From the NCBI RefSeq assembly GCF_902652985.1, contig NC_047022.1:15252001-15316000 (forward strand): a stretch of 64,000 nt of DNA, written 5' to 3'. Positions 24,901 through 30,900 of this stretch are shown here, in pieces; within the stretch, counting starts at the first letter, position 1; each line of letters starts with the position of its first letter. This stretch comes from Pecten maximus (taxonomy: Eukaryota). The position numbers are program-made.

Positions 24901-27900
24901 GCTAATGAGATCTTAAATTGTTGAATTGTGACAAAAGAATTACCCCATTTCTGCCAGAAATTCATGCAATCGTTTCTGTCCTTTGAGCGTCCAGACTTTG
25001 AACTTGCATGCCATGTTGGTTGAGTGACTGATGCTCTCAAACAGCGACCAGTGTCGATACAATGGCAGCTGGAGCTCCTCATCAAACGAGATCTTCAGGC
25101 AGTTTACAGACAGGATGTTGTCCTCGTCGTCTCTGACAAAAGTGTATAAAGAATGAGCACTTCAGGAGAAGAAAATTGATTGATAGGCCGTTTTAAATTG
25201 AAAGCACGTTTCACAGAAACATGGATCAGTACATTTCCTCAAAATTGCCTCAAATATATATATATATTTGTATTTACAGAATTATCATATGCTAATAAGC
25301 AAAGTTCAGCTTAAAAGTTGATACAACAAGGAGCCGCAAAGCTTGGCATTATCCCCCCCGCCCCGCAGTTGGTATGAAAACCCAAATACATGTATATATC
25401 AAGCTCAAACTAAAAGTTACTAAGGAAACAGTAATTTGGTATTTTTGATTAAGTTTCCATGGTGACAGAAAAAATACCAAAAATGGAAGGTCCGCAATAG
25501 CAAAAGGCACAACTAAGGCACTAGTCTGATAAATACAGAAAGTTTCAAGGAGCTGCGTTGAACAGTTTTGGAGTTATAGCCCGGAAACAGTAATTTAGTA
25601 TTTTTTATTAAGTTTCCATGGTGACAGAAAAAATACCGAAAATGGAAGTGTCGCAATAGCAAAAGTCACAACTAGGACACTAGTCTGACATATACAAAAA
25701 GTTTCAAGGAACTGCATCGAACGGTTTTTGAGTTATAGCCCGGAAAGAAAAGAAAACAGTCATTTGGTATTTTTGACTCAGTTTCCATGGTGACAGAAAA
25801 AATACCGAAAATGGAATGTCCGCAATAGCAAAAGGCACAACTAGGGCACTAGTCTGAGATATACAGAAAGTTTCAAGGAGCTGCGTTGAACGGTTATGGA
25901 GTTATAGCCCGGAAAAGAATCTTGGACGGACACACGGACGGACGGAGCCCAATTTAATATCCCCCGCAAACGCGTTTCGCGGGGGATAAATACACTTAAT
26001 TAAAATACAAAGAAGAACAAATTAGAACCTGAGAATTTTAAGTAAATAAGCAAGTTTCTGCCAATAACCAATATGCAAATAAGTGCATTCCTCTGTATCC
26101 AATCAAATAAAATATGCATAAAGAATGAGCACTTCAGGAGGAGATACACAGTGAAATATAACAAACTTCATCTTGATGGCCAAAAACAAAAAATGTCCTT
26201 TTTGAATATATAATATATGCACTTTTTTCGTAATGTAAACATAGCACAAGTAAGTTTCATGTGAGCTTTAAATTGAAAGCATTATATAAATATTTCGGAG
26301 TTACACCTTGCTCTGATAAGTTGAGTCTAAGGTTTAGTCACCTGTGGTTATGTCGAGATACGTGGGACTGTAAAGCCATGACATCATCTATGTACTTGTC
26401 CCTTGGAGTCTTGTAATGGATGAACTGGTCAGTAACTCCCAGGATAGACAACCTTTAAGCAATTGTTTGAATCAGATTAAACATTGATTTATCATATTGC
26501 AGAGCTATGAAATGTGACCTTAATGAGGCCTTGCTTTTGTCTCTTTAATCAGTACCTTATGGCCAAATTTTTAAATACGGTATAGATTGAAGTGACCAAC
26601 TTAAAACCAATTTGTTGGAAGTATGGATGGATAACTACATTAAAAAATCTCTTTTTATACTATATTAAAGTGAGGTGATCAATTCATGATAAATAAGCTT
26701 GTTCCATGAGATACAACCCTGAATTTTTTATTTTTTTTTATTTTGGTCATATGCGAAAGATCTTAAGTCAAATTCTTTGATGCTGCATTGGTCAAAGACC
26801 AAGTCTTTGGTCAAAGATAAAGTTTAAACAAGATAATGTACAGAAGGACACAATGCAGAACTATAGACCCCTCTCCACTCCCCCTTTGGTTCCCCATGGG
26901 GGACTAATACTTGGTTCTGCATTCTCAGAGGGATGCGATACTTTAAGCATCATACAATTCTGTAATGTAATAGTTTATACTTAACTATGACCTAAATAAT
27001 GATGTAACCCGATTTTATAAATAGTCAAACAGAGTTAATTAACATTTCACATAAATTGTACTTCTACTTACCATAACAGGTCATTTGTATCCTTGGACAT
27101 TTTCCATGCCAGTTCGAAAATAAGCAAGGCTGCCTATAAAATATAAATGTATACATTATACATAAATTTGTTTTTCTTATTCTCAAATGAATATTTAACT
27201 TTATAACCACTATTATTACCAATTTAATAGCATTTTATTATTTCATTAAAGAAAATTCTACAGATTATCTAAAATGCTCATACATGTATCGACATATGTA
27301 TCTGATTTGATAGATGTTAAAAACATACAGGGAAACTGAATTCAAACATATAAATCCATACTTATCAAAGACAAATGGGGGTTTAGCAAGGGCAAACAGG
27401 GGTCTGTTACATTTTATTTGATCATGTTACAGTATCTAGATACTGTAACATGACATTACAATGCTATCTTAATCAAATGCAAGAGGCCCATGGGCCTTAA
27501 CGTCACCTGATATTTGAAATATTTCACTTAATCTAATTGAACCGTTTTGGCCTCACCCATCAGTCCAAGGGGTCAGTAAGGGCCAACATGTGCATATCAT
27601 TAAGCTGGCATCCCATGCTGATAATTTTAAGAAAGTTAGAATGAATTCCAATAGAAATCAAACAAATGATTGTCAAAAATGTGATTTCCCTATATAAACT
27701 ATCGCAAAGTTTACCCTCTCCCAAGGGGCAAAACGTGCGACCCCAGGGTCATGAAATTCACAATTTAAGTAAAGCACCATAAGACCCTTCCATCTATGAA
27801 AAGTATTTGATTCTACCATATATTAAGAGTACTAAGAAGATTTTTGAAACTTCAGCCAATTTGACCCTTTTTAGCCCGGCCCATCAGCCCCTGGGGGTCA

Positions 27901-30900
27901 GTAAGGGCCAACATGTGCATACCATCAAACTTTTATCCCATGCTGATAATGTTAACCAAGTTAGAATGAATTCCAATACAAATCCAACAAATGAAAGTCA
28001 AAAATGTGATTCCACTATATAAACTATAGTAAAGTTTACCTCCTACCCAGGGGCAAACGCGAGACACCAGGGTCATGAAATTCACAATTTTGGTAAAGCA
28101 CCATAAGACCCTTCTATCTATGAAAAGTATTTGATTCTATCTTATATGGGTATTGAGAAGAAGATTTCTGAAATTTCAGTCAATTTGACCCTTTTTAGCC
28201 CCACCTCTCAGGTCTGTGGGGGTTGGGACCATATAATTCACAATTTTGGTTGACCTTCAGCTATAGAAGCTTTCTGCTAAATTTCATTGAATTTGGTTAA
28301 GCAGTTTTGGAGAAGAAGTCGAAAATGTAAATTGTTTACAGACGGATGACGGACAACGACAGACAACGACAGACAAAAGGCGATTAGAATAGGTCTCTTG
28401 AGACTTTGTCTCAGGTGACATAAAAATTAATCATATTCAAAATATAAAATCATTTTACATCTTTGTAGCAATAAATATTTATAGGAGTGGATAAGTTTTG
28501 GAGTCTGACAAAAATATCAGTTTGCTCATTCATACCAGATTTCAGCTTAAAAGTTGATGCAAATACACTTAATTAAAATACAAAGAAGAACAAATTAGAA
28601 CCTGAGAATTTTAAATAAATAAGCAGGTTTCTGCAAATAACCAATATGCAAATAAGTGCATTCCTCTGTATCCAATCAAATAAAATATGCATAAAGAATG
28701 AGCACTTCAGGAGAAGATACACAGTGAAATATAACAAACTTCATCTTAAATGCCAAAAACAGAAAATGTCCTTTTTGAATATATAATATATGCACTTTTT
28801 TTCGTAATGTAAACATAGCACAAGTAAGTTTCATGTGAGCTTTTAATTGAAAGCATTATATAAATATTTTGGAGTTACACCTTGCTCTGATAAGTTGAGT
28901 CTAAGGTTTAGTCACCTGTGGTTATGTCGAGATACGTGGGACTGTAAAGCCATGACATCATCTATGTACTTGTCCCTTGGAGTCTTGTAATGGATGAACT
29001 GGTCAGTAACTCCCAGGATAGACAACCTTAAAGCATTTGTTTGAATCAGATTAAACATTGATTTATCATATTGCAGAGCTATGAAATGTAACCTTAATGA
29101 AGCCTTGCTTTATGTCTCTTTAATCAGTACCTTATGGCCAAATTTTTAAATACGGTATAGATTGAAGTGACCAACTTAAAACCAATTTGTTGGAATTATG
29201 GATGAATGAATACATCAAAAAAATTCTTTTAATACTATATTAAAGTGAGGTGATCAATTCATGATAAATAAGCTTGTTCCACGAGATACAACCCTGAATT
29301 TTTATTTTTTTTTATTTTGGTCATATGCGAAAGATCCTAAGTCAAATTCTTTGATGTTGCATTGGTCAACGATAAAGTTTAGACAAGATAATGTACAGAA
29401 GGACACTATGCAAAACTATAGACCCCTCTCCACTCCCCCTTTGGTTCCCCATGGGGGACTAATACTTGCTTCTGCATTCTCAGAGGGATGCGATACTTTA
29501 AGTATCACACAATTCTGTAATGTAATAGTTTATACTATGACCTAAATAATGATGTAACCCGATTTTATAAATAACCAGAGTTAATTAACATTTTACATCA
29601 ATTGTACTTCTACTTACCATAACAGGTCATTTGTATCCTTGGACATTTTCCATGCCAGTTCAAAAATAAGCAAGGCTGCCTATAAAATATAAATGTATAC
29701 ATTAAACATAAATTTGTTTTTCTTATTCTCGAATGAATATTTAACTTTATAACCACTATTATTACCAATTTAATAGCATTTTATTATTTTATTAAAGAAA
29801 ATTCTACAGATTATCTAAAATGCTCATCCATGTATCTACATATGTATATGATTTGATAGATTTTAAAAACATACAGGAAAACTGAATTCAAACATATTAA
29901 TCCATACTTATCAAAGACAAATGGGGGTTTAGCAAGGGCAAATAGGGGTCTGTTACATTTTATTTGATTAATTATATAAAATTACATTGTAATGTCATGT
30001 TACAGCATCTAGATACTGTAACATGACATTACAATGTTGTCTTAATCAAATGCAAGAGGCCCATGGGCCTTAACGGTCACCTGATATTTGAAATATTTCA
30101 CTTAATCTAATTTAACCGTTTTGGCCTCACCCATCAGTCCAAGGGGTCAGTCGGGGCCAACATGTGCATATCATTAAGCTGGCATCCCATGCTGATAATT
30201 TTAAGAAAGTTAGAATGAATTCCAATAGAAATCAAACAAATGATTGTCAAAAATGTGATTTCCCTATATAAACTATAGCAATAAACCCCGCAAACAAATA
30301 AATCTTTAAAAGTAATAGGTCTCAGTTCCACTATTTTAACTGGACATTAACTCCTACATACTGTAAACATGAAAATTAAAAACCCTTGTGGAAATAGCCA
30401 TGTTTACAGTAAAAACAGATACTGAAGTAAAGAGAGGTTATTCTGATATGTCTGAAAACTTAATATTGAAGAGAAACTAATATACAAGTTACATAATTTA
30501 ATACTTACTGCTGTTCCATATGTAGAAAATTGGGAATATTCAAATAACAACTTGGACCTGAAACCCAACAATAAATTACATTAAAAATTGAGAACAATGA
30601 AGTCCAAACATATAAATTTAACAGGAGTTGCCAGAAGACAACATATCTCGCCGGATCGTTGAAATTCAGAATTATATTTTAAAAGTAGTTCAAAGGTCAC
30701 GGTCAAGGTCAGCAGGTCCACAAATGTAGCATCAATGGAAAGGTCAGCTAAACATGGCTTTAACAATGGATATGTATGTTTCTACCACAATACGCTGTGT
30801 TATTCCACTCTCAAGCCATTGTATAAGTGTGCAGACTGTTGGATATATATATATTATATTCCACTAGTGGAATATAACCTTCGGTCTTTTGATTGGTCAA

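What the first reader, a model, noticed from the sequence alone, without database searches (positions are those of the whole stretch)
25303..30280. CDC45 exons 8-9 tandemly duplicated, and including both copies breaks the frame
Seen: both copies keep intact splice sites and encode the same peptide (one synonymous difference), while their introns have diverged. The pair totals 173 nt, so 8A-9A-8B-9B frameshifts this essential replication gene; only 8A-9A, 8B-9B or 8A-9B are productive. Inference: either a real young duplication needing mutually exclusive splicing (with NMD-based dosage control possible), or two allelic haplotypes assembled in tandem, which is common in heterozygous mollusc assemblies.
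Basis: partly seen in the sequence, partly recalled or inferred. Interest (0 to 1): 0.65.

Follow-up and report, generated by a model that had tools for sequence, protein, structure and literature searches.

The report
Doubled CDC45 exons, probably assembly artefact
Two exons of the scallop DNA-replication gene CDC45 appear twice in a row here, most likely because the animal's two parental chromosome copies were stitched in series during assembly, not because the gene is really duplicated.

Summary
CDC45 lies on the minus strand; its exon 10 is 100% identical to the Pecten maximus protein. Coding exons 8 (62 nt) and 9 (111 nt) occur twice, in a ~1.74-kb block repeated with a 2,573-nt period. 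All eight splice sites are intact. The exons differ at 1 of 173 nt (TTT/TTC, synonymous). Using all four exons shifts the frame and gives a TAG in the second exon 9.

The rest is less dramatic than stated. Non-coding parts differ by only 3.5% substitutions, 8 small indels and two large indels. These are a 661-bp repeat element in the downstream copy only, and 835 bp present ahead of the downstream copy but missing ahead of the upstream one. Both large indels sit at the ends of the repeated block. The order is therefore shared flank, short arm, long arm, shared flank, as for a heterozygous bubble written out in series.

The published assembly came from one 1.71%-heterozygous animal, with an assembler that is not heterozygote-aware. 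No purging step is named, and gaps were filled late. I judge a haplotype artefact most likely (about 0.6). A real duplication is not excluded, because there is no N gap. Reads are needed to settle it.

The parts
19278..37831 (-). CDC45 coding region, 18 coding exons; ATG near 37831, stop near 19278
   Evidence: tblastn of P0001 against the window; Pfam PF02724; P0001 aligns end to end with solved CDC45 chains, E 4.6e-186
30509..30557 (-). Exon 7 (49 nt), single copy, last shared exon upstream of the doubled block
30282..30508 (-). First 227 nt of intron 7, single copy; no similarity to anything else in the window
   Evidence: BLAST of 30282-30520 against the window found no hit at E<=1e-3
28541..30281 (-). 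Upstream copy (U) of the repeated block, 1,741 nt; begins with only the last ~200 nt of element T (30076-30281)
29618..29679 (-). Exon 8U (62 nt), TTT variant
28916..29026 (-). Exon 9U (111 nt)
28425..28540 (-). Junction piece J, about 116-118 nt, unique in the window, between the end of copy U and element T
   Evidence: no other match in the window; boundary alignment
27503..28424 (-). Repeat-bearing element T (ends approximate) with 2.1 tandem units of 324 nt (27537-28205); full length ahead of copy D, truncated ahead of copy U
25988..27707 (-). Downstream copy (D), main part
27072..27133 (-). Exon 8D (62 nt), TTC variant
26342..26452 (-). Exon 9D (111 nt), identical to 9U; carries the TAG in the shifted frame
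25327..25987 (-). 661-bp insert (here TE160, ends +/-5 nt) with 3 tandem units of ~159-169 nt and a GC-rich terminal palindrome; present in copy D only
25305..25326 (-). Last 22 nt of copy D, matching 28541-28562 (21 of 22)
24944..25132 (-). Exon 10 (189 nt), single copy, first shared exon downstream
29977..30044 (-). 68-nt palindrome upstream of exon 8U; its counterpart upstream of 8D (27422-27453) is shortened to 32 nt

Best explanation
The doubled exon pair is most likely a false 'heterotype' duplication. It would be the two alleles of one 1.7-kb stretch of CDC45 intron 7 to intron 9, from a single heterozygous scallop, written one after the other.

On this reading the animal has two ordinary single-copy alleles. 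The long allele has exon 7, then J, a full element T, exons 8 and 9, TE160, then exon 10. The short allele has lost J and most of T and lacks TE160.

The two large indels at either end of a short shared stretch would have kept the alleles from being merged. One contig then ran from exon 7 through the short arm. Another ran from the long arm to exon 10. Scaffolding put them in the right order, and a later gap-filling polish removed the gap. The gene itself would be normal, with no special splicing.

Shown: the anatomy, the divergence figures and the published assembly steps. Inferred: the sequence of assembly events.
For: (1) Layout. In transcript order the region reads shared flank (exon 7 plus 227 nt), short arm U, long arm (J, T, D with TE160), shared flank (intron 9 tail, exon 10). 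The two copies differ by exactly two large indels, and both lie at the ends of the repeated block. The 835 nt of J plus the front of T sit just ahead of D and are missing ahead of U. TE160 lies 22 nt from the block's other end. That is the form of a two-armed heterozygous bubble laid out in series.

(2) Allele-like divergence. There are 54 substitutions in 1,691 aligned sites (3.2%), against a genome-wide heterozygosity of 1.71% (PMC7191990, passages). Regions that fail to merge should be the more divergent ones. Large hemizygous indels are reported as widespread in molluscs, P. maximus among the species studied (bioRxiv 10.1101/2020.09.15.298695, passages).

(3) Conserved exons. Exons differ at 1 of 173 nt against 53 of 1,518 non-coding sites (Fisher one-sided P=0.020). 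This is expected of two working alleles.

(4) Pipeline. The assembly used PacBio CLR reads and wtdbg2, whose authors list heterozygote-aware consensus as future work (bioRxiv 10.1101/530972, passages). The words 'purge' and 'haplotig' occur 0 times in the genome paper. [quoted passage not shown] The paper reports 28,880 lineage-specific duplications, more than double any other bivalve compared. False exon duplications of this kind are documented (PMC9516828, passages).

(5) Biology. All four exons share the same splice signals, so a real homozygous duplication should mostly yield the frameshifted mRNA of an essential single-copy gene. The 3 of 3 full-length mollusc orthologues I printed carry the exon 8-9 peptide once. 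P0001 aligns 1-561 to solved vertebrate CDC45 chains in one stretch.
Against: There is no N anywhere in the 64-kb window. A gap between the pair is one of the four listed hallmarks of false duplications.

wtdbg2 discards graph edges seen in fewer than 3 reads. A junction inside a contig should therefore be backed by reads, so the artefact needs a scaffold join whose gap was later closed cleanly, which I infer and cannot show.

wtdbg2 works in 256-bp bins and 1,024-bp vertices. That does not predict arms trimmed to within 22 nt of the indel sites.

The assembly was manually curated. The copies diverge by about twice the genome mean heterozygosity.

Read depth, spanning reads and k-mer copy number, the decisive criteria, could not be tested with these tools.
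Confidence: 0.6

Rival explanations
1. A real, old tandem duplication of the exon 8-9 unit that the species tolerates. Splicing would usually take only one pair (7-8U-9U-10, 7-8D-9D-10 or 7-8U-9D-10, all giving the same protein), and NMD would remove the four-exon, frameshifted mRNA. A possible helper is the palindrome upstream of each exon 8. Pairing between the two copies would loop out the upstream pair.
For: The sequence is continuous with no N gap, and about 116-118 nt of unique sequence lie at the junction. Both pairs keep intact splice sites, and the exons are conserved well beyond the introns (1 of 173 vs 53 of 1,518, P=0.020), as expected if both are used. Joint inclusion gives a stop in exon 9D, far upstream of the last exon junction; that such a stop triggers NMD is recalled general knowledge, not from a call. 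The predicted inter-copy duplex of the two palindromes is -75.9 kcal/mol, against -37.8 and -21.3 for the two local hairpins. Tandem duplication that carries intronic stems is a published route to competing structures (PMC6071210, passages).
Against: Splice signals of the two pairs are the same within 20 nt of the exons, except two positions at the exon 9 acceptor, so nothing favours skipping. The intron between the pairs is 1,782 nt, so steric exclusion fails. All donors and acceptors are GT-AG of the common type. The scan for a docking site outside the repeat was inconclusive. The local hairpins would form first during transcription. The 8-9-9 product is in frame and not policed by NMD. The two copies encode the same peptide, so there is no gain to offset the cost in a species with very large populations. 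It also needs two extra events placed at the ends of the unit: a deletion of 835 nt or more at the start of U, and TE160 22 nt from the end of D.
Confidence: 0.22
2. A real duplication carried on only one of the animal's two chromosomes. It would be a recessive loss-of-function allele of CDC45, with all four exons spliced in and the mRNA destroyed. It would have been formed recently by an unequal exchange between two diverged alleles, so that its copies differ at allele level from birth.
For: There is no gap. The copies show allele-like divergence with conserved exons. Equal splice signals predict full inclusion and a premature stop. That bivalves carry many recessive lethal alleles is recalled, not from a call.
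Against: New tandem duplications usually arise within one chromosome and start with identical copies. An exchange between homologues at a non-homologous junction is a rarer event. The placing of both large indels at the block ends is unexplained. An old lethal allele could not persist long enough to gather 3.2% divergence.
Confidence: 0.13

Closest known systems
False heterotype duplications in genome assemblies (Ko et al. 2022, PMC9516828)
   Same: Two adjacent, near-identical copies on one scaffold, with allele-level divergence, in an assembly of a heterozygous individual with no purging step named. That paper describes false exon duplications inside genes.
   Different: No assembly gap lies between the copies. 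Half depth, discordant linked reads and single-copy k-mers could not be tested.
Mutually exclusive exons born by tandem exon duplication and policed by NMD (FGFR2 IIIb/IIIc, as cited in PMC6071210)
   Same: Tandem homologous exons of equal length and phase. Joint inclusion breaks the frame and creates a premature stop.
   Different: The unit is a pair of exons. The copies encode the same peptide, so no protein diversity results. One mixed product (8-9-9) stays in frame. There is no transcript evidence.
Competing RNA structures generated by duplicating an intronic stem (Ivanov and Pervouchine 2018, PMC6071210)
   Same: The repeated unit carries a palindrome upstream of exon 8, so the two copies can pair with each other and loop out the upstream pair.
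   Different: The whole stem-loop is duplicated, not one arm. No single docking site outside the repeat was found (inconclusive).
Hemizygous insertions and deletions in bivalve genomes (Calcino et al. preprint, 10.1101/2020.09.15.298695)
   Same: Indels of several hundred bp, rich in tandem repeats, distinguish the two copies (TE160; J plus the front of T), as reported between haplotypes of single molluscs.
   Different: Here the two states lie in series on one sequence, not on two haplotypes.

Membership tests
CDC45 (Pfam PF02724) | Match to the family profile above the curated cut-off | tested here: met
   Exon 10 alone scores 67.7 bits against a cut-off of 34. The two exon 9 copies score 23.4 and 23.8 bits, below the cut-off, as expected for 37 residues, and match the adjoining profile positions 246-286. 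Exon 10 is 100% identical to the named P. maximus CDC45.
CDC45 (Pfam PF02724) | Full-length collinearity with solved CDC45 proteins, one copy of each segment | tested here: met
   P0001 residues 1-561 align in one stretch to chains of 566-567 residues, E 4.6e-186 to 5.6e-182. All 18 coding exons are found in order in the window.
False heterotype duplication (criteria of PMC9516828) | Assembly gap between the duplicated pair | tested here: not met
   No N run in the 64,000 bases. The published pipeline filled gaps in a late polishing round, so this weakens the test but does not reverse it.
False heterotype duplication (criteria of PMC9516828) | Haploid (half) read depth on each copy | not testable with these tools
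   No read data are available.
False heterotype duplication (criteria of PMC9516828) | Discordant or non-spanning linked and long reads at the junction | not testable with these tools
   No read data are available.
False heterotype duplication (criteria of PMC9516828) | Copies differ like alleles (haplotype-specific k-mers, divergence in the range of heterozygosity) | tested here: inconclusive
   3.2% substitutions against a 1.71% genome mean. This is compatible with a divergent allelic region and also with an older paralogue.
Mutually exclusive exon cluster | Tandem homologous exons with the same length, phase and intact splice sites | tested here: met
   62 and 111 nt in both copies, and AG/GT at all eight sites.
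Mutually exclusive exon cluster | Joint inclusion is eliminated (frameshift plus NMD) | tested here: inconclusive
   Inclusion of all four exons gives TAG in exon 9D. 8-9-9 adds 111 nt in frame and would not be eliminated (arithmetic).
Mutually exclusive exon cluster | Steric hindrance (very short intron between the alternatives) | tested here: not met
   The intron between 9U and 8D is 1,782 nt.
Mutually exclusive exon cluster | Incompatible U2/U12 splice sites | tested here: not met
   All donors begin GT and all acceptors end AG, and the donor sequences are the same in both copies. That they look like the common U2 type is judged from recalled consensus.
Mutually exclusive exon cluster | Docking and selector RNA pairing | tested here: inconclusive
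   Duplex energies of the single-copy intron pieces against the copies were within about 1-3 SD of only 8 shuffles, except two pairs with copy D alone (z about 3 and 5). The best inverted repeats that link a single-copy flank to both copies are 17 nt at 82%.
Mutually exclusive exon cluster | Transcripts contain one and only one alternative | not testable with these tools
   No transcript reads are available.

The most novel reading that the evidence does not exclude
The duplication is real and maintained in Pecten maximus. An essential, single-copy replication gene would then carry two interchangeable, frame-incompatible exon pairs that encode the same peptide. It would survive by choosing one pair at a time, helped by pairing between the two copies of an intronic palindrome, with NMD clearing the four-exon product. 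This would be a mutually exclusive two-exon cassette caught at birth, before any protein divergence.
Probability: 0.2. Interest if true: 0.55.

Novelty: not a real feature. Interest (0 to 1): 0.25.

Why it matters
If it is an artefact, it is a clean, gapless example of a false exon duplication inside an essential gene in a widely used scallop reference. Errors of this kind inflate duplication counts and produce spurious isoforms or frameshift calls, and the usual 'look for gaps' check would miss them.

If it is real, it would show how a frame-breaking tandem duplication of two exons can be tolerated in a gene that cannot be lost. It would also give a natural starting point for studying how mutually exclusive splicing evolves.

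Tried and rejected

(2) I tried to search protein collections for the frameshift peptide that only a 9-to-8 junction could produce. Exon 8 in the shifted frame is 20 residues and the tool needs 40. Joining it to the shifted exon 9 was left out, as spliced models were to be searched exon by exon. So no transcript-level test was made.

(3) I looked for other copies of TE160, T, J or the first part of intron 7 in the window, to define element ends. There were none at E<=1e-3.

(4) An older round of exon duplication was considered. The last ~185 nt of intron 9 (25321-25138) are distantly similar to 26276-26110 and 28850-28683, with scores of 61 and 64 against shuffle maxima of 51 and 54. This is an old repeat inside intron 9, present in both copies. 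It predates the event and does not involve exons.

(5) The junction insert as a copy of a T element from elsewhere was considered. The shared 206 nt of T are 98% identical between the copies, so U looks like a deletion derivative of a D-like state.

(6) The docking-site scan timed out first. The reduced version was inconclusive.

(7) The journal version of the wtdbg2 paper was not held under the id I recalled, so the preprint was used.

(8) No held paper contains both 'CDC45' and 'Pecten maximus' (0 papers). A looser search returned 3,308 papers, and none of the 8 listed concerns CDC45 exon structure (listing only). Supplementary files of the papers were not seen.
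Full report
WHAT IS THERE

The window has no N. A self-comparison of 24000-32000 shows one long direct repeat: 25988-27707 matches 28561-30281 at 93.6% over 1,750 columns (families D1-D12). Across the whole window this is the only long repeat outside satellite arrays. It is 1 of the 60 longest self-matches; the other 59 lie in five tandem arrays.

Stop-to-stop frames on the minus strand match Pfam CDC45. Exon 10 scores 67.7 bits against a cut-off of 34, and the two exon 9 copies score 23.4 and 23.8 bits.

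A database search with exon 10 alone returned 33 of 33 candidates at E<=1e-5. All are CDC45-like. The best is 100% identical and is named 'cell division control protein 45 homolog isoform X3 [Pecten maximus]' (P0001, 562 aa, on a 46-Mb contig). I therefore take the window to be king scallop.

tblastn of P0001 places 18 coding exons on the minus strand from 37831 to 19278. Every exon occurs once except the 8th and 9th, which occur twice.

I did not build or search a joined, spliced model. Window exons were searched one at a time.

EXONS AND FRAME

I call the pair transcribed first U (upstream) and the other D (downstream).
- 8U is 29679-29618 and 9U is 29026-28916.
- 8D is 27133-27072 and 9D is 26452-26342.
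- Lengths are 62 and 111 nt, and all eight splice sites are AG and GT.

The two exon 9 copies are identical. The two exon 8 copies differ at one base (TTT in U, TTC in D, both Phe).

The last 20 intron bases before exon 8 and the first 8 after each exon are the same in both copies. The exon 9 acceptors differ at positions -4 and -10.

173 is not a multiple of 3. Read after 9U, exon 8D has no stop in 20 codons. Exon 9D then stops at TAG after 20 codons.

8-9-9 adds 111 nt, or 37 codons, in frame.

The introns are 829 nt (7 to 8U), 591 (8U to 9U), 1,782 (9U to 8D), 619 (8D to 9D) and 1,209 (9D to 10).

HOW DIFFERENT THE COPIES ARE

A global alignment gives 54 substitutions in 1,691 aligned sites (3.2%) and 8 small indels covering 59 columns. 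By feature, the counts are:
- 17 of 574 in the intron 7 part
- 26 of 590 in intron 8
- 10 of 354 in the intron 9 part
- 1 of 62 in exon 8
- 0 of 111 in exon 9

Exons are more conserved than non-coding sequence (1 of 173 against 53 of 1,518; Fisher one-sided P=0.020, binomial 0.016). So 'introns have diverged' is only mildly true.

THE ENDS OF THE BLOCK

Homology does not stop at 25988. After a 661-bp insert present only in D, it resumes for 22 nt, with 25305-25326 matching 28541-28562 at 21 of 22. The insert (25327-25987) has three ~160-nt tandem units and a GC-rich terminal palindrome.

At the other end, both copies share the last ~200 nt of a repeat-bearing element T, at 98% identity. In D, T continues for another ~717 nt with 2.1 units of 324 nt. 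It is preceded by about 116-118 nt of unique sequence, J (28425-28540). In U, T is cut off at 30281-30290 and is preceded by 227 nt of unrelated intron and then exon 7.

None of these pieces has another copy in the window.

In transcript order the region reads:
- exon 7
- 227 nt of intron
- U (short, with no J, no front of T and no TE160)
- J
- full T
- D (with TE160)
- the tail of intron 9
- exon 10

The two copies thus differ by two large indels, and both lie at the very ends of the repeated block.

WHAT IT MOST LIKELY IS

This layout is what one gets by writing the two arms of a heterozygous bubble one after the other: shared flank, arm 2, arm 1, shared flank.

From passages of the genome paper (PMC7191990) I saw the following:
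- One individual was sequenced, with 65.9x PacBio CLR.
- Heterozygosity is 1.71%.
- 3.3% of BUSCOs are duplicated.
- There are 28,880 lineage-specific duplications, more than double any other bivalve compared.
- The words 'purge' and 'haplotig' do not occur.

From passages of the wtdbg2 preprint I saw these points:
- It uses 256-bp bins and 1,024-bp vertices.
- Edges with fewer than 3 reads are dropped.
- Heterozygote-aware consensus is listed as future work.

Ko et al. (PMC9516828, passages) describe false heterotype duplications, including false exon duplications. They name four hallmarks: half depth, a gap between the pair, discordant linked reads and single-copy k-mers.

Large hemizygous indels rich in tandem repeats are reported as widespread in single molluscs, including P. 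maximus (preprint, passages).

My inference is as follows. Two alleles differing by large indels on both sides of a 1.7-kb stretch were not merged. One contig ended with the short arm and the next began with the long arm. They were scaffolded in order, and the gap was later closed.

Biology points the same way. With equal splice signals, all four exons should normally be included. That would destroy the mRNA of an essential single-copy gene. P0001 is collinear with solved CDC45 chains over residues 1-561, and 3 of 3 full-length mollusc orthologues I printed have the exon 8-9 peptide once.

I put this reading at about 0.6.

WHAT SPEAKS AGAINST IT

- There is no gap, so the one hallmark I could test is not met.
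- A junction inside a wtdbg2 contig should be backed by at least 3 reads.
- The coarse bins of that assembler do not predict arms ending within 22 nt of an indel site.
- The assembly was curated.
- The copies diverge by about twice the genome mean.

A real duplication can also account for the anatomy, but it needs two further events. One is a deletion of at least 835 nt at the start of U. The other is TE160 either inserted 22 nt from the end of D or lost from U.

RIVALS

(a) A real, tolerated duplication with pairwise exclusive splicing (about 0.22).

Of the four mechanisms of mutual exclusion listed in PMC6071210 (passages):
- Steric hindrance fails, because the intron between the pairs is 1,782 nt.
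- Mixed spliceosome types fail, because all sites are GT-AG and the donors are identical.
- NMD applies to the four-exon product but not to 8-9-9.
- The scan for a docking site was inconclusive.

One structural lead exists. Each copy has a palindrome upstream of exon 8, of 68 nt in U and 32 nt in D. The predicted U-D duplex (-75.9 kcal/mol) is more stable than the two local hairpins together (-37.8 and -21.3). It would loop out the upstream pair. The local hairpins should form first during transcription, so this is weak.

(b) A real duplication on one chromosome only, acting as a recessive null allele (about 0.13). This needs a rare unequal exchange between diverged homologues to explain copies that differ from birth.

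NOVELTY AND VERDICT

Tandem exon duplication, frame-based exclusion with NMD and false haplotype duplications are all known. No held paper mentions CDC45 together with Pecten maximus (0 papers).

On the most likely reading the feature is not biological. Only reads or PCR across 28425-28540 can settle it.

Three things stayed unchecked:
- A transcript-level protein search, because the peptide is too short and the joined search was left out.
- The supplements of the cited papers.

Noticed in passing
window 25327-25987: A 661-bp insert with three ~159-169-nt tandem units (25424-25915) and a GC-rich palindrome at one end (25961-25984). It is present in the downstream copy only. The empty site in the upstream copy differs by two extra bases, which might be an excision footprint.
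   Followed up: partly
window 27503-28424: A repeat-bearing element with 2.1 units of 324 nt (27537-28205) and short inverted ends seen by eye. Only its last ~200 nt are present ahead of the upstream copy (30076-30281). No other copy occurs in the window.
   Followed up: partly
window 25138-25321 vs 26110-26276 and 28683-28850: The last ~185 nt of intron 9 are distantly similar to a stretch starting 65 nt after exon 9 in both copies (scores 61 and 64 against shuffle maxima of 51 and 54). This is an old internal repeat of intron 9 that predates the exon doubling.
   Followed up: yes
window 52761-55777 (also 46446-47997, 49895-50680, 51492-52273, 40835-41428): Five satellite arrays lie upstream of CDC45. 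The largest has 97.7 copies of a 31-nt unit, with 46-47% G+C and a GC skew of -0.43 to -0.60. Another has 36 copies of a 43-nt unit at 96% identity.
   Followed up: no
window 14254-15105, + strand: Two open frames match the C-terminal half of Pfam Tektin (E 9.9e-24 and 2e-47). A tektin gene converges on the 3' end of CDC45.
   Followed up: no
window 29977-30044 and 27422-27453: There is a palindrome upstream of exon 8 in both copies, 68 nt in the upstream copy and cut to 32 nt in the downstream copy by a 26-nt indel.
   Followed up: partly
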